From positions 1,546 to 65,545 of the forward strand of contig QHWJ01000345.1 in NCBI GenBank assembly GCA_003222535.1: a stretch of DNA of 64,000 nt. Direction: 5' to 3'. Below, in pieces: positions 14,140 through 59,954 of the stretch (position 1 is the stretch's first letter; each line of letters starts with the position of its first letter). Source of the DNA: Acidobacteriota bacterium (GTDB lineage: Bacteria > Acidobacteriota > Vicinamibacteria > Vicinamibacterales > CAVVIG01). The notes under the pieces are model-generated. The model was not told the DNA's origin. It did not search any database and saw only the letters and a program-made list of their open reading frames with translations. A program made the translations under genes and the position numbers.

Positions 14140-15080
14140 TCGCCGCGACTCGCCTGACCCGCCGCTTCGGCTCACGCACCGTGGTCAACGACATCACGTT
14201 CGCGGTGTCTCGCTCTGAAATCGTCGCGCTGCTGGGCCCGAACGGGGCCGGCAAGACCACCACACTGAGAATGCTGGCGGGGCTGATCGCGCCGACCAGC
14301 GGCTCGGTGGCGATTGACGGCGTGCAGCTCACGAAGGCGGCGGGGACGTCGCTGCGCCGCCGCATCGGGTTTCTCACCGAGGCCCCCGGTCTCTGGGATC
14401 GGCTCACCGTTCGCGAGAACCTGCGCATCTACGCCGGCCTTTACGATCTTGCGCACGCCGAACAGACGATCGACCGCGCGCTCGAGATGTTCGAGCTGAC
14501 CGACTGCCGATCGGCGCGCGCCGCTGAACTGTCGAAAGGCATGCGGCAAAAGGTCGCGCTGGCCCGCGCCCTCCTGCACGATCCGGCGATCCTGCTGCTC
14601 GACGAGCCGTCGTCCGGGCTCGATCCCGAGGTGATGCGAATGGTCCGCCGGCTGCTCGAGGAGCGGCGGGCCGCCGGCTGCTCGATCCTCGTGTCGACGC
14701 ACAATCTCGACGAGGCCGAGCGTCTGGCGGATCGCGTCGCCGTGCTCCACGAGCGGCTGCTGGCGATCGATCGGCCGTCGGCGCTGCGGCAGCGGCTGAC
14801 GACCGGGCGCCTGATCGTCCGCGTATCCGGCGATCCGTCCTCCTACATCGAGACAGTGCGAGCGCTCGGACCCGGCTTCACGGACCCGGCGATCGAAGGG
14901 GCGGCGCTCATCCTTCGCGTCGCGGACCTCGACCGGCAGGCCCCCGCCCTGGTGGCGGCGCTGGTCGCCGGCGGCGCGCGGATCCTCGAGGTCCGCGCGG
15001 AGATCCCCGCGCTCGAGGACGTCTATCTTCATCTCGTGGGCGAGACGTCAGAAGTCAGAAGTCAGAAGTCTGAAGTCTGA
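14136..15080 (+). CDS. ABC transporter ATP-binding protein (ABC-2/DrrA-like)
   Basis: GPNGAGKTTT (Walker A), LSKGMRQKVALA (signature) and ILLLDEPSSGLD (Walker B) are present. The GTG at 14136 overlaps the upstream stop (GTGA). Confidence 0.9.
   Translation: MIAATRLTRRFGSRTVVNDITFAVSRSEIVALLGPNGAGKTTTLRMLAGLIAPTSGSVAIDGVQLTKAAGTSLRRRIGFLTEAPGLWDRLTVRENLRIYAGLYDLAHAEQTIDRALEMFELTDCRSARAAELSKGMRQKVALARALLHDPAILLLDEPSSGLDPEVMRMVRRLLEERRAAGCSILVSTHNLDEAERLADRVAVLHERLLAIDRPSALRQRLTTGRLIVRVSGDPSSYIETVRALGPGFTDPAIEGAALILRVADLDRQAPALVAALVAGGARILEVRAEIPALEDVYLHLVGETSEVRSQKSEV

Positions 15081-21678: not shown

Positions 21679-21682
<4 letters not shown>
20516..21682 (+). CDS. acetyl-CoA C-acyltransferase (thiolase)
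   Basis: [12 protein letters not shown] (active-site Cys), [25 protein letters not shown] and CVGGGMG are present. Confidence 0.95.
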
Positions 21683-23475
<1,793 letters not shown>

Positions 23476-23493
23476 GGTCGCGTTGGGTCCTGC

Positions 23494-23728
23494 AGGTCGG
23501 GTGGGTCGGGTAGGTCGGGTGGGTCGGGCTTGCCCGCCGTAGCTCGCATCGGCCAAGGCGCGTGAGCGAAGGCGGGTGGGTCAGGTAGGTCGAGTAGGTC
23601 GCGTGGGTCAGGGCGGTCGCGTGGGCCAGGTAGGTCGAGGGGTCAGGTACTTCGAGTAGGTCTGGTGGGTCGGGTAGGGGTAGGTGGGTCGAGTAGGTCA
23701 GGTGGGGCAGGGAGGTCGGGTGGGTCAA
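23494..23728 (+). repeat. degenerate hexamer/dodecamer array (GGTSGGGTRGGT-like), G-rich on the + strand
   Basis: There are two blocks (23494-23530 and 23571-23728). The core GGGTGGGTCGGGTAGGTCGGGTGGGTCGGG at 23499-23528 has six G3 tracts. The array ends one base before the ATG of the next gene. Confidence 0.85.
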
Positions 23729-24400
23729 ATGCTTCTGAAACGGAGGAAGGCGCGTTGGTTCGTCGGGCCCTCACTACATGGCCTGCCAGCGCTATCCGCC
23801 CTACCCGCCCTCGCGGCGGCCTGTCTCCTGGTCTCGTGCAGCCCAAGGCCGCCCGAGCCGAAAGACTATACGGCCAGGCTGGCGGCCGATCGTGCGGCGA
23901 AGGATGCGGCCTTCCAGAGCGGCTCGGATCCGGTTCCCGCCGCACGGCACGCCGAGTTGCTGCCGCTCGCGTACTTTCCGATCGATCCCGGATACGACGT
24001 GCCGGCGGTGCTCAAAACCACCGACGACCGCACGGTGTTCCAGATGCCGACATCGAGCGGCGCCCCGCGGGACATGCGGCGTGTCGGATCGCTCGAATTC
24101 ACGCTGAAGGGCCAGGCCTTGAAGCTGACGACCTTCGTGGAAGTGGCCACGCCCACTCACCTGTTCGTGGCGTTCAGCGATCTGACCAGCGGCAACGAAA
24201 CGTACCCGGCCGGCCGCTACGTCGATATCGATCGCAACAGCACCGGCATTTACGAGATTGACTTCAACCGCGCGTACAACCCGTACTGCTACTACAACCC
24301 CACGTACGAGTGTCCGTACCCACCCCCGGAAAACCGCCTGAAAATCCCGGTACGAGCGGGAGAACGAATGAAGAGGTCTGAAGTTGGAAGTCTGAAGTAA
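23729..24400 (+). CDS. DUF1684 family lipoprotein
   Basis: A lipobox-like AACLLVSC is followed by FPIDPGYDV...LTSGNETYPAGRYVD...FNRAYNPYCYYNPTYECPYPPPENRL, as in DUF1684. Confidence 0.85.
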   Translation: MLLKRRKARWFVGPSLHGLPALSALPALAAACLLVSCSPRPPEPKDYTARLAADRAAKDAAFQSGSDPVPAARHAELLPLAYFPIDPGYDVPAVLKTTDDRTVFQMPTSSGAPRDMRRVGSLEFTLKGQALKLTTFVEVATPTHLFVAFSDLTSGNETYPAGRYVDIDRNSTGIYEIDFNRAYNPYCYYNPTYECPYPPPENRLKIPVRAGERMKRSEVGSLK

Positions 24401-24463
24401 GAAGAGAAGTAAGAAGCAAAGCAGACTTCGTATTTCAGACTTCAGACTTCAGACTTCAGACTT
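24374..24463. repeat. heptamer-built hairpin (TCTGAAG)n ... (CAGACTT)n
   Basis: The left arm is gaggtctgaagttggaagtctgaagtaagaag. The right arm is cagacttcgtatttcagacttcagacttcagacttcagactt. The element spans the stop of the DUF1684 gene and ends 2 nt before the HAD ATG. Confidence 0.8.
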
Positions 24464-24465
24464 GC

Positions 24466-25146
24466 ATGTCTTTGCGTGCCATCGTCCTTGACTTCGACGG
24501 CGTGATCGCGAACAGCGAGCCGCTGCACTTCCAGGCGTTCCGGGACGTCCTCGCCGAGGAAGGCGTCACCCTGACGGAGGGCGACTACTACGCACGGTAT
24601 CTCGGCTTCGACGATGTCGCGGCGTTTCAGGCGATCGCCGTGGCCTGCGGCGGCGCGTGGACGACGGCGCACATCGGGGAGCTCGCCGCGCGGAAAGCAG
24701 CCCGGCTCGAATCGCTCGAGTGCGAGGTGTCGATATTGTTTCCGGGCGCCGCCGGCGCGGTGCGTCGCGCGTCCGCGGCGGTGCCGATCGCGATCGCATC
24801 CGGCGCGCGCGGCGTCGAGATCCGCCGCGTCCTCGATCGTGAAGGTCTCGCGGCGTGTTTCACGGCGATTGTCGCCGCCGGGGACACGGCCGCCGGCAAG
24901 CCGGAGCCGGATCCCTATCTGCGTGCAGTGACGCTCCTTGCACCGGCCTGCGGCGGCCACCTCGCCGCATCCGAGTGCGTGGCGATCGAGGATTCGCATT
25001 GGGGCCTGGAGTCGGCGCGCGCCGCCGGATTGCGAACGGTCGCCGTCACGCACACCTACGAAGCGGCCGCGCTGGCGAGCGCCGATCTGGTGATCGCCTC
25101 CCTCGACGAGCTGGATCTGCGCGCTTTGGCCCGCCTCTGTTCCTGA
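24466..25146 (+). CDS. HAD family hydrolase (beta-phosphoglucomutase-like)
   Basis: IVLDFDGVIANSEPLH (DxDG), GKPEPDPY and EDSHWGLESARAAG are present. Confidence 0.85.
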   Translation: MSLRAIVLDFDGVIANSEPLHFQAFRDVLAEEGVTLTEGDYYARYLGFDDVAAFQAIAVACGGAWTTAHIGELAARKAARLESLECEVSILFPGAAGAVRRASAAVPIAIASGARGVEIRRVLDREGLAACFTAIVAAGDTAAGKPEPDPYLRAVTLLAPACGGHLAASECVAIEDSHWGLESARAAGLRTVAVTHTYEAAALASADLVIASLDELDLRALARLCS

Positions 25147-34410: not shown

Positions 34411-35193
34411 CTACTGTCTTCGAATCGCCTGCAGCGTGAAGTCCTCGTCCTTGAGCGGCAGGTTGTATTCCAGCTTCTCGAGCGTCATCCGCGTGCGAGT
34501 GCCGCGCTTGAGGTCCGACATCTCGAGCAGCCGGGCGGTCCATATGCCCTGCACGTTCTGAAAACCGGAGTAGTTCAGGCGGCGCACGACCAGGTCCTTC
34601 ACGTAGCTCTCGATCCGCGCGAACGCGTAGTTGTCTTTCCGGATCCACACGATCGATCGCGTGTACTGCGACGACCTGGATTCCCGCGGGGTCGACTGAA
34701 TCTTCCAGCAGGCGGCCCCGTCCACGGCTTCCTCGCCGCCGAGCGCGTACTCGTACTGGCTGACGTCCCGCTCCTCGAGGTCCTCGAAGCTGAAATCGGT
34801 GCCGAAGAATCTCGTCGAGCGGTCCTGCAGCGCGATCCGGCGGTCGCGCTCGATGGCCGGCGTCCACATCCACTGGTCCGACGCGCGGTCGGGATGGTTG
34901 ACCACGAGGAGCGCCACGCCCTTCACTTCCGCGGGCAGCGTGAAACGCAGCACGACCCTGCTCTGCCCGTGCGAGCCGAGCCGCTCGAGGGTCCACCGTT
35001 TGTCACTGATCCTGCCGTTGTGGTCGAACACCTGCAGCAGCCCTTCGTAGCGCTGCGACCTGGCGTCGGTGCGCTTTTGCGCTTCCTCGACGATCTGACG
35101 GGCGTTGTCGGCTGCGTTCATTGGATATCGCCAGGCTGCGAAGAGTGCCACGCAGACGAACAGCGTTTTTCCTGGCCGACCTGGCCGACCCAC
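34411..35193 (-). CDS. LolA-like outer-membrane lipoprotein-sorting protein family (PF17131-like)
   Basis: WMWTPAIERDRRI, FFGTDFSFEDLEERD and the body length are typical of LolA_like proteins. The start is uncertain: the GTG at 35193 gives the signal peptide MGRPGRPGKTLFVCVALFAAWRYPMNA. Confidence 0.7.
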   Translation of the reverse strand: MGRPGRPGKTLFVCVALFAAWRYPMNAADNARQIVEEAQKRTDARSQRYEGLLQVFDHNGRISDKRWTLERLGSHGQSRVVLRFTLPAEVKGVALLVVNHPDRASDQWMWTPAIERDRRIALQDRSTRFFGTDFSFEDLEERDVSQYEYALGGEEAVDGAACWKIQSTPRESRSSQYTRSIVWIRKDNYAFARIESYVKDLVVRRLNYSGFQNVQGIWTARLLEMSDLKRGTRTRMTLEKLEYNLPLKDEDFTLQAIRRQ

Positions 35194-35252
35194 CCGACCT
35201 ACCTGACCCACCCGACCTGCCTCGCCTACCTGACCCACCTGACCCACCTGCC
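35171..35252 (-). repeat. degenerate hexamer array, G-rich on the minus (sense) strand
   Basis: The plus strand reads cctggccgacctggccgacccacccgacctacctgacccacccgacctgcctcgcctacctgacccacctgacccacctgcc. It is the same family as 23494-23728. It begins 2 nt from the permease stop codon, and the chosen LolA-like start (35193) lies within it. Confidence 0.85.
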
Positions 35253-35254
35253 CT

Positions 35255-37807
35255 TCACTCATATTCCAGCGCCTCGACGAGCGATCCGTGCACCGCCGAT
35301 TCCGCCGGCCAGATCGCCGCGATGAACGCAGCGCTCAGAATCGTCGGCACCAGCGCGAGCACGGTCCCAAACGGGAACGCGTAGTCCAACCGCATGCCCA
35401 CGATGTCGCGATGCACGATCTGCAGGATGTAGTAGAGATTGACCGCGCCCAGCGAGAAGCCGAGTGCGAGGCCGAGCGTGCCGATGCCGAGCGCCTCCAG
35501 CCAGATGGTCCGGCGGATCTGACCGTGCAGTCCGCCCACGGCCCTCAGCACGCCCAGTTCCCGGCGTCGATCGGTGATGGACACGGTCAAGGTGTTCACG
35601 ATGCCGAGAATCGCGACGAGCACCGCAACGGCGATCTGCACGGACGTGAGCCCGAACCATTGGTCGGTGATCTTCAGGATGTAGCCCTTGAGCTCGGCGT
35701 TCGTCAGCACGAACACCTGCCGCTGGCCCGCGTACCGTTCGAGAATCCGCCGGCGGACGTCCGGCACCCGGGCGCCCGGCTTCACGTACACGCGAAACGC
35801 GTTCAAGGAGTCGTCGTCCCAGTACCGCACGAACACGCTGCGGTCCATGAGGATTGTGCCCTGCTGGTCCGAGTAGTCGACGATGATGCCCGCGATCGGC
35901 AGACGGATGAGGCCATTGGGGGCGGGAATGTCGAGCCGCTCACCGAGCGTGAGATGCTTGAGCTGCGCCAGATTGTCGGACACCATCAGGCCTTCCCCGG
36001 CCGCGGTCCGCCGGTACATCTCGTCAGCATTTCCCTCGACCGGTGCCCGGCGCGCCGTCTGGGCAATGCTGGCCATCTCGACGGCCACGACCATCACGGG
36101 CGTCTTACGAAACACGACCCGCGCTTCGCGCACCATCTGCACGCGCTCGACTCCCGGAATCGCCGCCACCTCGGGCGCCATCGTGGCCGGAAACCGAATC
36201 GTGCGGACGGTGATGCTGTGCGACGGCATGATGAACAGGTCCGGATTGAGGGTCGTGTTCATCCAGTCGATGATCGAGTCGTAGCTGGCGCGCGCCATGC
36301 CGGCAAACGCCACGACCAGCGCGAGCGAGAGCATGAGCGCGGCGACGCTCGCTGACGTCCGTCGCGGCGACTGAATCAGGCTGTCTGCGGCGAGAGCACC
36401 TTCGACCGGCCGCAGCCACTTCAGCACCGGCCGAATGGCTTTTGCCATCGCCAGCGACAGCAGCGGGCTGACGAGCAGCGCGACGACAATGGCGAGCACG
36501 TACCCCGTGTAGAAGACCGGCCGCGATCGGCCGATGGAGAGGCAGACGATCGACACGGCACCAAGCACCAGCGCGAGGATCGTCCGCAGGCGGCTTTCTC
36601 CCGCCGACAAGACCTGATACTTGCCCTTCTGAAGCGCCTGGACGGGATCGACGCGGGCCGCGTTGCGCGCGGGAATCGCAGCCGCCACGATGCTGGTCGT
36701 GACACCGATGCCGAGCGCCAGCACGAGCAGCGCCGGACTCGCGGACAACTCGCCGGCGTGCTGCGCCACGCCGTAGGAATCGCCAATCAGCGTCGCGATC
36801 GACGCCGCAATGGCTCTGGCGATCAGGATGCCGAAGGCGAGACCACCGAGCGAGCCGACCACGCCGGTGACGGCGCTTTCGCCGAGGAACAGCCATCGAA
36901 TCTGCCCGCCAGTGGCGCCGAGCGCGCGCAGAATTCCGATTTCAGCGCGCCGCTCGGTCACCGCAATGGCGAACGAGTTGTAGATGATGAACATCCCGAT
37001 GAAGAGCGCGAACAGGCTCGAAATGCCCACCATCATCGAATAGGCCGCCAGCATGTCCTCGAATTGCCGGCCGCGGCCCGACGGCGGCTCGACCTGGAAG
37101 CCCGGACCGAGCATCGCGCTCAGCTCCTGCTCGCAGTCCTTCAGTGTGCGCCCGGGCCTCACCGCGAGGTCGATCCGATCGAACGTGCGGCCGCGTCCGA
37201 ACATCTTCTGCGCCGCGTAGATGTCCATGATCGCCAGGTTGCCGCCGAAGGCGCTCGCCAGCCCTGACGATTTCATGACGCCGCGCACGGTGAACGACTG
37301 CTCGCCTTCCGCCGTGCCGAGCGTCAGACGGCCGCCGACGGTGATGTGGTTCCTCCCGGCGAGCTCTTTCGAGAGCATGATCGAGTCGGGCTGGGCGAGA
37401 AAGACGAGGGGATCGTCGACGAGCGCCTCGTCGCCGCTCTCGAGGTCGTAGTCGCGCAGGGTGCGGTCCCCCGTCATGTCGATGCCGAGCACGAGCAGGC
37501 TGCCCTGGCCGTTGAGATTCGTGTCGACGACCGCTTCGATCACCGGAACCGCCACGCGCACGGTCGGCGCGGCCTGCACCTTCTCCAGCACCCCTTCGTT
37601 GAATCCGGCCTCTCCGGCCGTGACCTCCAGCTCGGTCTTCCCCGCAATGCGGTCGACCGTCCGCGAAAACGCAAACAGCACACTCGAGTTCGCGGTGTGC
37701 ATGCCGACGAACACGGCGACGCCGAGCACGATGCCGCCGGTCGTCAGCGCCGTCCGGAGCACGTGCTTGCGGAAATACGGCCAGCTGATCAGCCCGAGCA
37801 GAATCAT
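35255..37807 (-). CDS. ABC transporter permease, double FtsX/MacB-type (850 aa)
   Basis: There are two FtsX domains (ERRAEIGILRALGATGGQI and DRRRELGVLRAVGGLHGQI), each preceded by a large periplasmic segment. Confidence 0.9.
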   Translation of the reverse strand: MILLGLISWPYFRKHVLRTALTTGGIVLGVAVFVGMHTANSSVLFAFSRTVDRIAGKTELEVTAGEAGFNEGVLEKVQAAPTVRVAVPVIEAVVDTNLNGQGSLLVLGIDMTGDRTLRDYDLESGDEALVDDPLVFLAQPDSIMLSKELAGRNHITVGGRLTLGTAEGEQSFTVRGVMKSSGLASAFGGNLAIMDIYAAQKMFGRGRTFDRIDLAVRPGRTLKDCEQELSAMLGPGFQVEPPSGRGRQFEDMLAAYSMMVGISSLFALFIGMFIIYNSFAIAVTERRAEIGILRALGATGGQIRWLFLGESAVTGVVGSLGGLAFGILIARAIAASIATLIGDSYGVAQHAGELSASPALLVLALGIGVTTSIVAAAIPARNAARVDPVQALQKGKYQVLSAGESRLRTILALVLGAVSIVCLSIGRSRPVFYTGYVLAIVVALLVSPLLSLAMAKAIRPVLKWLRPVEGALAADSLIQSPRRTSASVAALMLSLALVVAFAGMARASYDSIIDWMNTTLNPDLFIMPSHSITVRTIRFPATMAPEVAAIPGVERVQMVREARVVFRKTPVMVVAVEMASIAQTARRAPVEGNADEMYRRTAAGEGLMVSDNLAQLKHLTLGERLDIPAPNGLIRLPIAGIIVDYSDQQGTILMDRSVFVRYWDDDSLNAFRVYVKPGARVPDVRRRILERYAGQRQVFVLTNAELKGYILKITDQWFGLTSVQIAVAVLVAILGIVNTLTVSITDRRRELGVLRAVGGLHGQIRRTIWLEALGIGTLGLALGFSLGAVNLYYILQIVHRDIVGMRLDYAFPFGTVLALVPTILSAAFIAAIWPAESAVHGSLVEALEYE

Positions 37808-47785: not shown

Positions 47786-47828
47786 TAGGGGTTAGGGCTT
47801 ATGGCAAAGGGCTTAGGGCTTAGGGCTC
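47786..47828. repeat. (GGGCTTA)n heptamer array
   Basis: taggggttagggcttatggcaaagggcttagggcttagggctc lies between the thiI stop and the aldolase start. It shares ggcttatggcaa with 59900. Confidence 0.75.
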
Positions 47829-49038: not shown

Positions 49039-49040
49039 GA

Positions 49041-49196
49041 ATCTGGTAATTGGGTAATTGGGTAATCTGGTAATCTGGTAATTGGATTGGGTAATTGGGG
49101 TCATTGATTGGGTAATTGATTGGTTGATTGATTGGTTGATTGAGCCGTCAATCGTCAAATTCAATCACCCGATTACCAGATTACCCGATTACCAGA
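49041..49196. repeat. composite array: (GGTAATY)n, (TTGATTGG)n, then inverted (GATTACC)n
   Basis: ctggtaattgggtaattgggtaatctggtaatctggtaattgg is followed by gattgggtaattgattggttgattgattggttgattg. Then comes cccgattaccagattacccgattaccag. The array fills the hpnE-thiI gap and includes the hpnE stop. Confidence 0.85.
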
Positions 49197-50559
49197 TGCA
49201 AAGCTCCGCCGCGCGGTGTCCCGATCTGACCGCGCTCTCGATGGTCGCCGGCAGACCCGTATCGATCCAGTCGCCGGCAAGGAAGAACCCTTTCACGCCC
49301 GTTTCGGTCGACGGCCGCGCGGGCGCTCCGGGCGCGAGCGAGAACGTCGCGCGAGGCTCGCGCACGACGCTCGCCCGCAGCAGACGCGCGCTGCGCACCT
49401 CGGGCAGCGCCTCCAGCAGCTCGTCGTGCGCGACTTGAATCAGCTCGTCGTTGGATCGCGCCAGGATCGACGCCGCACCGCTCGACACCAGCGACAGATG
49501 CGACGCCTCGTCTCCAAACACGAGGCGCTTGTCGAAGACCCATTGCATCGCGCGGCCGGGGAGGCCGATGAACGGCTCGTCCAGCACGCGGCGATCGAAC
49601 CAGAGATTGACGGTCACGATGGGAGACGACGGCAAGCGTCTCGCGCGATCGAGGAGATCGCGAAGCGCAGGCGGCTCGCGTTCGAACAGCTCGGGAAACG
49701 CGAACCACGGGACCGACGAGATGACGCGGGTCGCGGTCCACCGCTCGTCGCCGGATTCGACGGCCGCCACCTCACCACCCCCGTCGCCGTCGTCGCTCAC
49801 GACAACCTTCGCGAGCGCACCAGTGCGGACCGTTCCTCCGTGGCGCTCGATGTACTCACGCGCGGGCTCCGCGTACATCAGGTGGAGCGGTTTGGTCGGA
49901 AGGGCGATGGCGGCGGCTTGGGCGTCGTCCCCGAGCATCTCCGCGAGCACCCGCGCGAAGGTGGGCGCCGCGGCCTGATCCGGCGGCTGATTGAGCGCCG
50001 CGAGCGCCAGCGGGGTCCACAGCATCTCACGAATGCGCGGCGTCTGGCCGTTTCGCACGAGCCAGCCCTCGACCGTCTCTCCCGGCGACGCCGCTTTCAT
50101 GGTCGACCCCGGCCGGAGCTCTCGGCGCGCGTGCTTCAATGGCGTCGCCATCCCCAGCGCGGACAGACGATCCCGCCACGAAAGCGCCTCCCACTCGAGC
50201 ACCCCGGCGACGAGATGGAACGGTGCCGGCAGCGCCGGACATGCGAGGCGCGTGCGCCGCAGGGCGCGATCGATCATCGTCACCGCGAGCTGCGGATCGA
50301 GGCGCACGTTGTCCAGCGCGCCGACGTCGCGCAGGAACGCGAAGGTCTCGGTATAGCACCCGAGCAGAACGTGCTGTCCGTTGTCCACGAGCTCGCCCGT
50401 CTCGCGGTCGGGAAACGCGGTCGCGCGTCCCCCGAGGCGTCCACGCGCTTCGAGCACGAGCACGCGCGCGCCGCCCCGGGTGAGGCGGGAGGCGGCGCTC
50501 AGGCCGGCAAAGCCGGCGCCGATGACGATGACGTCGAAGCGGGTCAGGTCCACAGCCAT
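49189..50559 (-). CDS. hpnE: hydroxysqualene dehydroxylase (FAD amine-oxidase/phytoene-desaturase fold)
   Basis: VIVIGAGFAGLSAA...LEARGRLGGR is present, and the gene lies directly downstream of two squalene/phytoene-synthase genes. Confidence 0.8.
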   Translation of the reverse strand: MAVDLTRFDVIVIGAGFAGLSAASRLTRGGARVLVLEARGRLGGRATAFPDRETGELVDNGQHVLLGCYTETFAFLRDVGALDNVRLDPQLAVTMIDRALRRTRLACPALPAPFHLVAGVLEWEALSWRDRLSALGMATPLKHARRELRPGSTMKAASPGETVEGWLVRNGQTPRIREMLWTPLALAALNQPPDQAAAPTFARVLAEMLGDDAQAAAIALPTKPLHLMYAEPAREYIERHGGTVRTGALAKVVVSDDGDGGGEVAAVESGDERWTATRVISSVPWFAFPELFEREPPALRDLLDRARRLPSSPIVTVNLWFDRRVLDEPFIGLPGRAMQWVFDKRLVFGDEASHLSLVSSGAASILARSNDELIQVAHDELLEALPEVRSARLLRASVVREPRATFSLAPGAPARPSTETGVKGFFLAGDWIDTGLPATIESAVRSGHRAAELCIW

Positions 50560-52354: not shown

Positions 52355-52852
52355 TTGCAGATGCGTGACGTTTTCGCCGCCGCGGCCGCTTTCATTCTGC
52401 TCCTCGTCGCGGCCAGCCTGGCGACGACGCTGCAGACGTATCGCCGGCGGCGGCTGCGCGCGCGCGACTCCGAGCGGGCCCTGGGGCGCACGATCATCGC
52501 CGAGATCCCGGCGGGCGACGGCCTGGTCCTGTTCAGCGAGGACGCGGTGCGGTTTTACCACGGCGAGCGCTCCATCGACAAAGATCTCGTCGTCGCGGCT
52601 CGAGTGCTGATCAACGGCTCGCCCATCGCGGCCTGCGTGTCGCGCCGGCATCCCGGCGAGGCGCTGAGGCAGGCCACGAGCTTCGAGGATCGGCCGGACG
52701 GCATTGAGCGCGACCGGTGGGACGTCGCCATCGAGACGGCGACAGGAACGGTGCTCGTCGAGTGCGGCGCAATTCGCGAGCGCGTATCCCAGGAGCTTGC
52801 GCGGTCGGTGTTCGACGCGGTGAAACGCGATCTGGAGCGGAGAGATCGCTGA
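52355..52852 (+). CDS. hypothetical single-pass membrane protein
   Basis: It has one N-terminal TM helix (FAAAAAFILLLVAASLATTL) and then a ~130-aa soluble domain. I recognise no family. Confidence 0.5.
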   Translation: MQMRDVFAAAAAFILLLVAASLATTLQTYRRRRLRARDSERALGRTIIAEIPAGDGLVLFSEDAVRFYHGERSIDKDLVVAARVLINGSPIAACVSRRHPGEALRQATSFEDRPDGIERDRWDVAIETATGTVLVECGAIRERVSQELARSVFDAVKRDLERRDR

Positions 52853-52917
52853 ATTTGGAATTTGGAATTCAGAATTTGGAATTCGGTCACGCATTCCAAA
52901 TTCCAAATTCCAAATTC
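52851..52917. repeat. heptamer-built hairpin (GAATTTG)n ... (CAAATTC)n
   Basis: gaatttggaatttggaattcagaatttggaattcg pairs with attccaaattccaaattccaaattc. It lies between convergent genes and starts inside the stop codon of 52355-52852. Confidence 0.85.
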
Positions 52918-59579: not shown

Positions 59580-59864
59580 ATGTGGATCCTGCGGAGCGCC
59601 GAGACCGAGACGACGTTTCGCCTGCGATCCGGCGCCGTCAAGACCGTCGGCCGCGCGCCGCGCGCCGACTTCGTCGTCCATGCCGCCCTTGTCTCGCGCC
59701 TGCACTGCCGGCTGACCGCCACCGACGACAATCTCGAAGTGGTGGATCTGACGAGTACGAACGGCACGTTCGTCAACAACAGACGCGTCGAAAAGGCGCA
59801 TCTGTCGGCGGGCGATCGTCTTCGCGTGGGACGCGTGGAGTGGATCGTCATGGCTGAGGGCTGA
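59580..59864 (+). CDS. FHA domain protein (stand-alone, 94 aa)
   Basis: VGRAPRADFVV...VSRLHCRL...DLTSTNGTFVNNRRV is the FHA signature. Confidence 0.85.
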   Translation: MWILRSAETETTFRLRSGAVKTVGRAPRADFVVHAALVSRLHCRLTATDDNLEVVDLTSTNGTFVNNRRVEKAHLSAGDRLRVGRVEWIVMAEG

Positions 59865-59954
59865 GGGCTGAGGCAGCTCGTCATGGCCGAGGGCTAATGG
59901 CTTATGGCAATGGTGGATGGTTCCGTCTTTCGGCCATCAGCCATCAGCCATGAC
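59847..59954. repeat. heptamer-built hairpin (GGCTGAG/GGCTAAT)n ... (GCCATCA)n
   Basis: gtcatggctgagggctgagggctgagg...gtcatggccgagggctaatggcttatggcaatgg pairs with ggccatcagccatcagccatgac. Both convergent genes stop inside it. Confidence 0.8.

What the first reader, a model, noticed from the sequence alone, without database searches (positions are those of the whole stretch)
23494..23728. 235-nt G-quadruplex-prone hexamer array on the sense strand, ending one base before a lipoprotein start codon
Between the acyl-CoA dehydrogenase stop and the DUF1684 ATG the + strand is a degenerate (GGTSGG/GTRGGT)n array. Its core GGGTGGGTCGGGTAGGTCGGGTGGGTCGGG (23499-23528) has six G3 tracts with loops of 1, 2, 6, 1 and 2 nt. 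That meets the usual G3+N1-7 rule. More GGG tracts follow up to 23728. Because the G-rich strand is the mRNA-sense strand, an RNA G4 could form in the 5' leader right against the ribosome-binding region.
Basis: partly seen in the sequence, partly recalled or inferred. Interest (0 to 1): 0.6.

Follow-up and report, generated by a model that had tools for sequence, protein, structure and literature searches.

The report
Nine-base repeat array with embedded hairpin
The G-rich stretch between two genes of this soil acidobacterium is one copy of a fast-changing 9-base repeat family with a tRNA-trailer-like hairpin inside it, so its G-quadruplex potential looks like a side effect of its composition.

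Summary
The G-rich array is real, and three stretches in it meet the G3+N1-7 quadruplex rule. Its period is 9 nt (GGTRGGTCN), not 6.

The array is one of about 160 such arrays in this 8-Mb Vicinamibacterales genome. They lie on both strands and in every type of intergenic gap, and some sit in frame inside genes. The family occurs in 33 of 118 genomes of the taxonomic family, patchily within genera, and in none of about 185 genomes of sister families.

Only 36% of the arrays carry a canonical quadruplex motif. Near-identical strains from soil metagenomes differ at this very locus in unit number, in hairpin number (1 to at least 3) and in the "core" quadruplex run. There is no enrichment upstream of signal-peptide genes. 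There is a 2:1 sense-strand bias.

The hairpin shares its core and fold, with compensatory changes, with hairpins that directly follow the CCA end of at least seven tRNA genes.

I read the feature as a hypervariable mosaic repeat, like the G-rich repeat families of Xanthomonas and Nostoc and like REP/BIME elements. No driver gene was found: RAYT, PF13366 and GIY-YIG were all tested and all negative. This scan had already noted related heptamer arrays in the same genome.

The parts
21679..23475 (+). Upstream gene, an acyl-CoA dehydrogenase. Its TAG stop (23473-23475) runs straight into the first degenerate repeat unit (TAGGGTC).
   Evidence: Pfam Acyl-CoA_dh_N/M/1/C; sequence. The ACAD-DUF1684 gene order is conserved across the order.
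23484..23528 (+). Left nonamer block of about 5 units (TGGGTCCTG, CAGGTCGGG, TGGGTCGGG, TAGGTCGGG, TGGGTCGGG).
   Evidence: TRF period 9, 3.8 copies, 92% matches; register printout; PQS and G4Hunter 1.83. This block differs in near-identical strain L085.
23527..23578 (+). 52-nt hairpin module: GGCTTGCCCGCC-GTA-GCTCGC-loop-GTGAGC-GAA-GGCGGGTG. The inserted part proper is about 23529-23575, placed between two nonamer units.
   Evidence: RNA fold -35.6 kcal/mol, z = -2.7. There are 24 copies in the genome, always in the same orientation within nonamer arrays. It shares an invariant core and covarying stems with the trailers of 7 tRNA genes. No Rfam match.
23575..23727 (+). Right nonamer block of 17 units of GGTRGGTCN with some decayed units. 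It contains quadruplex motifs at 23667-23688 and 23704-23724.
   Evidence: TRF period 9 (17 copies) and period 18 (8.4 copies); register; PQS. It is identical in L085 but replaced by other arrangements in L087 and L088.
23710..23715 (+). Shine-Dalgarno-like GGGAGG, formed by a degenerate repeat unit. It lies 13 nt before ATG 23729 and 4 nt before the in-frame GTG 23720.
   Evidence: Sequence. GGGAGG also precedes the start in L087 and L088. Its function is inferred.
23729..24400 (+). Downstream gene, a DUF1684 protein with a lipoprotein-type signal peptide (...LAAACLLVSC).
   Evidence: Pfam DUF1684, E = 1.5e-42; translation. In L085 the start is GTG at the same position.
23792..23811 (+). C-rich nonamer remnant (CTATCCGCCCTACCCGCCC) inside the signal-peptide codons. 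It is a partial inverted partner of the G-rich array.
   Evidence: TRF period 9. Inverted repeats I1, I2 and I4 are 71-92% complementary. The fold that pairs them is not significant (z = -0.9). In relatives the full C-rich arm encodes the DUF1684 N-terminus and forms strong hairpins.
35171..35250 (-). Second array of the same family in the window. It is G-rich on the minus strand, which is the sense strand of both flanking genes, and it starts 2-3 nt after the stop of gene 35255-37807.
   Evidence: TRF; pattern search; sequence and ORFs.

Best explanation
The feature is one locus of a lineage-restricted, high-copy, hypervariable mosaic repeat. Its body is a tandem array of 9-nt units, GGTRGGTCN. 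A 48-52-nt GTAG-tagged hairpin module has been inserted between two units.

The hairpin is a relative of the hairpins that directly follow the CCA end of several tRNA genes in this genome and its relatives.

The arrays grow, shrink and reshuffle quickly. I infer replication slippage and unequal recombination between units, and duplication of blocks made of nonamers plus a hairpin. The family has spread to about 160 sites by a mechanism whose enzyme, if there is one, was not found.

At this site the array fills an intra-operon spacer. It abuts the upstream stop codon and supplies the SD-like sequence of the downstream lipoprotein gene. It is therefore probably transcribed as part of the mRNA (inferred).

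Its G-quadruplex potential follows from its base composition. It is not a conserved feature of the family or of this locus. Any effect on DUF1684 expression is most likely a by-product of repeat turnover, not a dedicated G4 switch.
For: - Period 9 and the two-block-plus-hairpin anatomy.
- Family size: 161 arrays with at least 3 core hits, 12.6 kb in all, on both strands, 23 of them at contig ends.
- Control: 361 three-unit matches against 0 for the reversed control pattern.
- Distribution: 33 of 118 genomes and 17 of 43 genera of the family, patchy within genera (for example g13 5/13, with counts from 0 to 177). No match in about 185 genomes of 18 sister families.
- All spacer types are used: 90 co-directional, 18 convergent, 15 divergent.
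- In-frame arrays sit inside real genes. They encode (VGQ/VGR)n, which hits the Pfam Collagen model, or (GGSGRS)n. In one sulfatase two translated hairpins are also present.
- Hypervariability at this exact locus among strains with 90-98% DUF1684 identity: a different left block, 1 to at least 3 hairpins, different unit counts.
- The orthologous junction in other genera carries the same family (G012, G020), other arrays, a REPIN, or nothing.
- Hairpin: 24 copies, in fixed orientation relative to the nonamers. It shares an invariant GCCG-W-AGCTC...GAGCGAAGG core with 7 tRNA trailers. 84% of cells are paired, 8 pairs show compensatory change, and 0 of 500 shuffles do as well. 17 of the 29 best hits in other genomes abut a tRNA gene, and 3 more abut tRNA fragments.
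- A second interrupting module, GGAGCGCGAAGGCTTCAGCCGAGCG, also has a fixed orientation: 82 cases against 5.
- The G4 motif is not a family trait: 58 of 161 arrays have one, and GTAGGTC units outnumber GTGGGTC units 388 to 200.
Against: No dispersal enzyme was identified, so 'mobile' is an inference from copy number, patchiness and insertion into coding sequences.

The 2:1 sense-strand bias (p = 0.002) is not expected for a purely neutral element. Nor is the habit of starting right after stop codons (14 of 60 sense arrays lie within 12 nt of the stop). Both features match the Xanthomonas and Nostoc G4 repeats (PMC4692102), so some RNA-level or transcription-linked constraint is possible.

Several genera keep an array or an inverted-array hairpin at this same junction. 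That could reflect function, not only a hot spot.

My gene calls come from a home-made codon-bias caller that uses longest-ORF starts, so distances to start codons are unreliable.
Confidence: 0.72

Rival explanations
1. The G-rich array folds into RNA (or non-template DNA) G-quadruplexes in the 5' leader. These block or tune ribosome access to the DUF1684 start, acting as a dedicated cis-regulator.
For: There are three canonical PQS on the sense strand. The last one (23704-23724) overlaps the SD-like GGGAGG and ends 5 nt before the ATG. G4Hunter reaches up to 2.0. Nonamer arrays hold 90 of the genome's 518 PQS in 0.16% of its DNA. There is a 2:1 sense-strand bias. Related G-rich repeat oligos fold into G4 in vitro in other bacteria (PMC4692102).
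Against: G3 tracts are absent from 64% of the arrays. The core run is not conserved in strains with 90-98% identity. The family also occurs in convergent gaps and inside genes. There is no four-unit preference and no signal-peptide enrichment. Shuffled sequences of the same composition score as high. The authors of the closest precedent could not find a regulatory role either (PMC4692102, Discussion).
Confidence: 0.08
2. A contingency or translational-control element. The G-rich array pairs with the C-rich nonamer remnant inside the signal-peptide codons and encloses the SD and start. Changes in repeat number, or ribosomes terminating at the ACAD stop, then alter how much lipoprotein is made.
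For: At the same junction in other genera, inverted arrays bracket the DUF1684 start and form very stable hairpins: G017 z = -7.4, G024 z = -4.0, G020 z = -2.45, G007 z = -2.2. The two arms differ between genera but stay complementary within each genome. In the window the MFE fold pairs 23665-23690 with 23790-23815 around the start. Copy number varies between strains.
Against: In this genome the pairing is weak (71-92% over 12-31 nt) and the fold is not better than shuffles (z = -0.9). Many relatives have no array at the junction. Array hairpins occur at many unrelated junctions in this lineage (and earlier notes of this scan), so bracketing a start codon may be incidental. Most repeat-associated genes are ordinary metabolic genes, not surface or phase-variable genes.
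Confidence: 0.1
3. A protein-recognition platform. The phased GTRGGTC words, or the GTAG-tagged hairpin, are binding or cleavage sites for a sequence-specific protein. Candidates are a RAYT-type transposase, an Ssn-like single-strand nuclease, a PF13366 nuclease or a nucleoid protein. That protein would maintain and spread the family.
For: The strict 9-nt phasing and the conserved GT[AG]G word recall the GTAG tag that RAYTs cleave (PMC3733652). The patchy, high-copy distribution is typical of enzyme-driven repeats. The orientation between nonamers and both hairpin modules is fixed. In this genome, heptamer arrays do bracket PF13366 genes.
Against: The single RAYT of this genome is flanked by a different REP (GTRG-N-GTCCGGCTTCAGCCGGAC). 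RAYT presence does not track nonamer-rich genomes: G011, G018, G257 and G259 have none. All PF13366 genes in six genomes are flanked by heptamers only. The four GIY-YIG genes are not flanked by nonamers.
Confidence: 0.1

Closest known systems
Abundant G-rich quadruplex-forming simple sequence repeats of Xanthomonas (GGGAATC) and Nostoc (GGGGA(C/T)T), Rehm et al. 2015, PMC4692102
   Same: Both are short (6-9 nt) G-rich units in tandem, with hundreds of loci scattered over the genome. Both lie mainly in non-coding DNA between co-oriented ORFs. In both, the G-strand is on the sense strand just after stop codons. Both vary widely in number and sequence between close relatives, both have formal G4 potential, and neither has a demonstrated function.
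   Different: Here the unit is 9 nt, not 7. Only about a third of the arrays have four G3 tracts, and there is no preference for four units. The arrays are interrupted by hairpin modules. Several arrays are in frame inside genes. The distribution is confined to part of one Vicinamibacterales family.
REP / BIME mosaic elements and GTAG-tagged REPs with RAYT transposases (Di Nocera et al. 2013, PMC3733652)
   Same: The embedded module is a GTAG-tagged imperfect palindrome present in many copies. It combines with other short motifs in fixed relative orientation to form mosaics, like BIMEs. This genome also has a classical GTAG/GTGG REP family of about 270 copies and a RAYT.
   Different: The bulk of the element is a direct tandem array, not palindromes. 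The RAYT is flanked by a different REP, and its presence does not correlate with the nonamer family. The hairpin has a second, outer stem and shares its core with tRNA trailers.
Intergenic TAACTGA direct-repeat sets of Beggiatoaceae, Cyanobacteria and Bacteroidetes (MacGregor 2015, PMC4679880)
   Same: Both are one specific short word repeated directly at more than 100 intergenic loci. Both have a patchy phylogenetic distribution with no known spreading mechanism. Both often lie next to start codons.
   Different: The TAACTGA sets are AT-rich heptamers, mostly of 2-6 copies, lying just upstream of start codons. The nonamer arrays are GC-rich, reach more than 20 units, and tend to start at stop codons.
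Rickettsia palindromic elements (RPE). This comparison rests on my own knowledge of Ogata et al. 2000; I did not re-read the paper here.
   Same: Both are repeat elements that insert in frame into protein-coding genes and are tolerated as extra peptide segments. Here the examples are a sulfatase, a sortilin/BNR protein and an M16 peptidase.
   Different: RPEs are 100-150-nt palindromic elements, not 9-nt tandem arrays. No sequence relationship was seen.
Hairpin elements abutting tRNA CCA ends, and E. coli tyrT RtT repeats (Rfam RF00391). These are leads from earlier notes of this scan, e1-1558701 and e1-3192963.
   Same: The hairpin module's relatives begin directly after the CCA end of tRNA genes (7 tRNAs here; 17 of 29 best hits in relatives). 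They use the tRNA 3' end as part of the outer stem.
   Different: At the locus under study there is no tRNA, and the module sits between nonamer units. There is no Rfam match. No sequence relation to RtT was tested.

Membership tests
G-rich quadruplex-forming SSR families (Rehm et al. 2015 type) | Tandem G-rich unit of 6-9 nt, dispersed at many loci, mostly non-coding | tested here: met
   Unit of 9 nt. 161 arrays, 123 of them in intergenic gaps, 15 inside called genes and 23 at contig edges.
G-rich quadruplex-forming SSR families (Rehm et al. 2015 type) | Every array supplies at least four G3 tracts, and four units are preferred | tested here: not met
   Only 58 of 161 arrays have a G3+N1-7 motif. 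The numbers of arrays fall steadily with size: 36, 29, 26, 14 and 10 arrays with 3, 4, 5, 6 and 7 core hits.
G-rich quadruplex-forming SSR families (Rehm et al. 2015 type) | G-strand on the sense strand close behind stop codons, and between aligned ORFs | tested here: met
   90 of 123 intergenic arrays lie in co-directional gaps. Sense to antisense is 60:30. The median stop-to-array distance is 24 nt for sense arrays. Both arrays in the window follow this rule.
G-rich quadruplex-forming SSR families (Rehm et al. 2015 type) | G4 folding shown in vitro, and repeats transcribed | not testable with these tools
REP / REPIN-RAYT systems | GTAG-tagged imperfect palindrome of 20-40 nt in high copy | tested here: inconclusive
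   The hairpin carries GTAG followed by the palindrome CTCGCG...CGCGAG and has 24 copies. It is 52 nt long with two nested stems, and it makes up only a fifth of the feature.
REP / REPIN-RAYT systems | A RAYT gene flanked by the same repeat, or co-occurrence of RAYT with the repeat | tested here: not met
   The RAYT at C216 is flanked by GTCCGGCTTCAGCCGGAC REPs. Nonamer-rich genomes G011, G018, G257 and G259 have no PF01797 match.
PF13366 (GxxExxY) nuclease cassettes with inverted word arrays (earlier finding of this scan) | Arrays of the word bracket a PF13366 gene in inverted orientation | tested here: not met
   8 PF13366 loci in this genome and 15 in five nonamer-rich relatives are flanked by heptamers (CACAGAG, CACGAAA, CACAAAG and others). 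None is flanked by GTRGGTC.
Ssn-type GIY-YIG nuclease with cognate repeat (PMC11893778) | A small GIY-YIG gene associated with the repeat | tested here: not met
   The 4 PF01541 loci have no nonamer arrays in their flanks.
tRNA-trailer (CCA-abutting) hairpin module | Shared sequence core and covarying stems with the hairpins after tRNA genes | tested here: met
   Alignment A2 has 17 invariant columns. 84% of cells are paired, 8 pairs show compensatory change, and 0 of 500 shuffles do as well. The tRNA-Met trailer at C308 scores 55.6 bits with the array-built model.
tRNA-trailer (CCA-abutting) hairpin module | Lies directly 3' of a tRNA gene | tested here: not met
   There is no tRNA at 23400-23800. 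The module lies between nonamer units. No tRNA ending in GACCYACC exists in 117 of 118 family genomes, so the nonamer is not a copy of a resident tRNA end.
Known structured RNA families (Rfam 15) | Covariance-model match | tested here: not met
   Only chance-level hits (E >= 0.23, all far below gathering scores) in 22500-24800, both strands.

The most novel reading that the evidence does not exclude
The nonamer arrays and their hairpin modules may form one active, enzyme-driven mosaic element of a kind not yet described. In this reading, a hairpin that normally sits exactly behind the CCA end of tRNA genes treats the C-strand nonamer (...GACCCACC|C) as a mimic of a tRNA 3' end. It then lands in, and is co-amplified with, the arrays. 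The arrays themselves would be laid down or maintained by an unidentified lineage-specific protein. In several genera, inverted arrays keep their complementarity around the DUF1684 start, so that the repeat has been drawn into signal-peptide coding and possibly into translational control.
Probability: 0.12. Interest if true: 0.65.

Novelty: new variant of a known kind. Interest (0 to 1): 0.38.

Why it matters
Dispersed short-unit repeat families are a long-noticed and still unexplained feature of some bacteria, including the cyanobacterial STRR sequences, the Xanthomonas G4 repeats and the Beggiatoa TAACTGA sets. This locus gives a clean case study for three reasons.

- The family is confined to part of one acidobacterial family and is patchy between congeneric species. 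That makes the search for a driver gene by phylogenetic profiling tractable.
- It shows repeats being absorbed into genes, as collagen-like Gly-X-Y linkers, signal-peptide codons and a ribosome-binding site.
- It links tandem arrays to hairpins that otherwise mark tRNA 3' ends.

For genome annotation it is also a warning. Quadruplex-motif hits in such genomes mostly report repeat composition (17% of all motifs lie in 0.16% of the DNA). These arrays also break assemblies and create spurious ORFs on the C-rich strand.

Tried and rejected
- **Hexamer periodicity:** rejected. TRF and the spacing histogram give 9 nt.
- **An 18-nt unit with alternating GTGGGTC and GTAGGTC:** rejected. The alternating fraction is 0.43 against 0.45 expected.
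- **Protein-coding reading of the minus-strand ORF 23390-23728:** no Pfam hit. The C-rich strand is open in all frames.
- **Rfam:** nothing.
- **Sigma-70 promoter or canonical intrinsic terminator in the spacer:** none found.
- **RAYT as driver:** rejected. It has different flanking REPs and shows no co-occurrence with the family.
- **PF13366 cassettes as source of the nonamers:** rejected in six genomes.
- **GIY-YIG or Ssn-like gene:** rejected.
- **Genes lying between inverted nonamer arrays:** they are ordinary genes (by my own reading of the translations, a DNA glycosylase, a phosphatase, a DJ-1 family protein and a superoxide dismutase), not a mobile-element gene.
- **Nonamer as an exact copy of a resident tRNA 3' end:** rejected. 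There is no tRNA ending in GACCYACC in 117 of 118 genomes. Only the 6-mer CC[CT]ACC is shared with the two tRNA-Val ends.
- **Enrichment upstream of signal-peptide genes:** none.
- **Long-range mRNA hairpin around the start in this genome:** not significant.
- **Look-alikes in earlier scan notes, by sequence:** none.

Full report
**What is there**

The spacer between an acyl-CoA dehydrogenase gene (21679-23475) and a DUF1684 lipoprotein gene (23729-24400), both on the + strand, is entirely repetitive and 51% G. Tandem Repeats Finder reports periods of 9, 18 and 27 nt, not 6. Written in a 9-nt register, the sequence reads as GGTRGGTCN units.

The array is not continuous. A left block (23484-23528, about 5 units) and a right block (23575-23727, 17 units) flank a 52-nt hairpin (23527-23578). 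The hairpin folds at -35.6 kcal/mol, z = -2.7.

Two more canonical motifs follow, at 23667-23688 and 23704-23724. G4Hunter gives 1.83 for the core. The two-unit pattern occurs 15 times in the window against 0.04 expected. Four of those hits lie in a second array at 35171-35250. That array is again G-rich on the sense strand of its flanking genes and again starts just after a stop codon.

**It is a family, not a local device**

The window lies in an 8.06-Mb, 65% GC draft genome of 450 contigs. Its relatives are soil Vicinamibacterales (Acidobacteriota) MAGs.

The core GT[AG]GGTC clusters into 161 arrays of at least 3 hits, the largest with 21 hits, 12.6 kb in all, equally on both strands. Spacing between cores is 9 nt 588 times, 18 nt 145 times and 27 nt 36 times.

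With a home-made codon-bias gene caller (5,706 genes, 84% coding), the arrays fall as follows:

| Location | Arrays |
|---|---|
| Co-directional gaps | 90 |
| Convergent gaps | 18 |
| Divergent gaps | 15 |
| Contig ends | 23 |
| Inside called genes | 15 |

Several of the in-gene cases are real in-frame insertions with Pfam domains on both sides:
- a Sortilin/BNR protein carrying (VGR/VGQ)x19, which hits the Collagen model;
- an M16 peptidase carrying (GGSGRS)n;
- a sulfatase-TPR protein in which two copies of the hairpin itself are translated as GLPAVARIEEARAKVGG.

**Taxonomic spread**

Three consecutive units occur in 33 of 118 genomes of the same taxonomic family (17 of 43 genera). The reversed control pattern gives no hits. 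Counts within a genus range from 0 to 177. A four-unit pattern was found in none of about 185 genomes from 18 sister families of the order. This patchy, high-copy, species-level pattern is what expanding or mobile repeats show. It is not what a conserved regulatory motif shows.

**The locus itself is unstable**

The ACAD-DUF1684 gene order is conserved across the order. The junction holds different things in different genera:
- the same nonamers (G012, G020);
- other G-rich arrays paired with an inverted C-rich arm that runs into the DUF1684 N-terminal codons (G017, G024, G007, G002);
- unrelated 7-8-nt arrays;
- a REP doublet;
- nothing.

Soil-metagenome contigs of much closer strains also differ at this locus:

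| Contig | DUF1684 identity | State of the junction |
|---|---|---|
| L085 | 98% | Same hairpin and an identical right block. Different left block, without the six-tract core, and different DNA upstream |
| L088 | 95% | One hairpin, other unit counts |
| L087 | 90% | At least three hairpins, each separated by about six nonamers |

Contigs tend to end in the array. So the feature turns over at strain level, in steps of single units and of blocks made of nonamers plus a hairpin.

**G-quadruplex reading**

Nonamer arrays hold 90 of the genome's 518 canonical motifs in 0.16% of its DNA. Even so, only 58 of 161 arrays have such a motif, and GTAGGTC units outnumber GTGGGTC units 388 to 200. Dinucleotide shuffles of the array score as high on G4Hunter. 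There is no preference for four units. That preference was the main argument for G4 selection in Xanthomonas and Nostoc (PMC4692102).

Genes whose 5' side faces an array are not enriched for signal-peptide-like N-termini (39% against 38%).

What remains is a 2:1 bias for the G-strand on the sense strand in co-directional gaps (60:30, p = 0.002). It is partly confounded with local GC skew. Sense arrays also tend to begin close to the upstream stop. Both traits were described for the Xanthomonas and Nostoc repeats, whose function also remains unknown.

No sigma-70-like promoter lies in the spacer, so the array is probably inside the mRNA.

**The hairpin**

An nhmmer search and a covariance model built from the copies find 24 copies in this genome. 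Twenty-two of them are embedded in nonamer arrays, always in the same orientation.

In other genomes of the family the model's best hits are weaker hairpins. In 17 of 29 cases these abut a tRNA gene, and in 3 more they abut a tRNA fragment.

In this genome at least seven tRNA genes (Leu-tag, Gln-ctg, Gly-ccc, Thr-ggt, SeC, Met, Ser-cga) are followed directly after CCA by GCC-TTCGCTCGC-loop-GCGAGC-TTCGGC-TGGCAAGCC. Read on the C-rich strand, this is the same module as the array hairpin.

An alignment of four array copies with the seven trailers has an invariant GCCG-W-AGCTC...GAGCGAAGG core. In it, 84% of cells are paired and eight pairs show compensatory change. None of 500 shuffles does as well, and slid controls pair at 31-42%. 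So the fold is maintained, and the module is older and wider than the nonamer family.

A second short module, GGAGCGCGAAGGCTTCAGCCGAGCG (254 copies), also interrupts or borders arrays in a fixed orientation, 82 cases against 5. The overall picture is a mosaic, as in enterobacterial BIMEs.

**Search for a driver**

- The only RAYT gene is flanked by a different, classical GTAG/GTGG-tagged REP of about 270 copies. RAYT presence across the family does not follow nonamer abundance.
- PF13366 nuclease genes were linked to heptamer arrays by earlier notes of this scan. They are indeed flanked by inverted heptamers here and in five nonamer-rich relatives, but never by nonamers.
- GIY-YIG genes are not associated with nonamers either.
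- The idea that the C-strand unit GACC[CT]ACCN copies a resident tRNA 3' end failed. No such tRNA occurs in 117 of 118 genomes.

The driver, if any, is unknown.

**Possible local effects**

The array supplies the SD-like GGGAGG (23710-23715). An in-frame GTG at 23720 and the ATG at 23729 both lie at its edge.

A C-rich nonamer remnant (23792-23811) inside the signal-peptide codons can pair with the array around the start, but the fold is no better than shuffles (z = -0.9). In four other genera the equivalent inverted arrays form strong hairpins (z = -7.4 to -2.2) with the start codon in or near the loop. The C-rich arm there encodes part of the signal peptide (my translation of the sequences). 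This keeps a translational-control reading alive at low probability.

**Verdict**

The G4-riboregulator interpretation is at best a minor possibility.

The feature is a new variant of a known kind of bacterial repeat, the dispersed G-rich short tandem repeats and REP/BIME-like mosaics. The same scan had already met related heptamer arrays in this genome. The new points are:
- the nonamer family and its narrow, patchy distribution;
- the embedded tRNA-trailer-type hairpin with covariation support;
- the in-frame collagen-like insertions.

Noticed in passing
G000 C27, C57, C69, C275, C290, C308, C422 (tRNA 3' flanks); loci L058, L061, L066-L077, L080, L082, L084: At least seven tRNA genes of this genome, and many in related genomes, are followed directly after CCA by a conserved hairpin (GCC-TTCGCTCGC-loop-GCGAGC-TTCGGC-TGGCAAGCC). 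Its outer stem uses the tRNA 3' end. There is no T-run after it and no Rfam match.
   Followed up: partly
G000 C14:51135-54470, C78:4711-6426, C404:2408-4807, C428:22617-24578: Nonamer arrays lie in frame inside real genes (Sortilin/BNR, M16 peptidase, sulfatase-TPR). They encode Gly-X-Y runs that hit the Pfam Collagen model, or GGSGRS linkers. In the sulfatase, two hairpin modules are translated as GLPAVARIEEARAKVGG.
   Followed up: partly
G000 C216:39800-40500 and about 270 sites genome-wide: A classical REP family, GT[AG]G-N-GTCCGGCTTCAGCCGGAC, often occurs as inverted doublets. It flanks the genome's single RAYT (PF01797) gene on both sides, a textbook REPIN-RAYT arrangement in an acidobacterium.
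   Followed up: partly
window about 15914 (C63:17459) and 254 sites genome-wide: A third dispersed 25-nt module, G[GT]AGCGCGAAGGCTTCAGCCGAGCG, occurs singly, in tandem and as inverted doublets. It is often joined to nonamer arrays in a fixed orientation.
   Followed up: partly
loci L011 (G017), L012 (G024), L023 (G007), L026 (G020): ACAD-DUF1684 junction: In four other genera, inverted arrays with genus-specific units but matching arms bracket the DUF1684 start codon. The C-rich arm encodes part of the lipoprotein signal peptide. The arms therefore change in concert.
   Followed up: partly
window 24371-24463, 15043-15077, 47786-47827, 49040-49197, 52851-52917, 59852-59951: Many other intergenic arrays of 7-8-nt units (AGAAGTC/CAGACTT, TAGGGCT, GGTAATTG, GAATTTG/ATTCCAA, GGCTGAG) occur, several as inverted pairs. 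Nearly every longer spacer in the window is repeat-filled.
   Followed up: no
G000 C341:4500-5500: A small GIY-YIG gene is flanked by GGCTGAG-type arrays on one side and CCGCCCTCCGCCTGA repeats on the other. It may be an Ssn-like pair of nuclease and repeat.
   Followed up: no
L059, L065, L072 (relatives): The hairpin module sits next to truncated 3' halves of tRNA-Lys, as left by integrase-mediated insertion into tRNA genes. The module seems to travel with duplicated tRNA ends.
   Followed up: no
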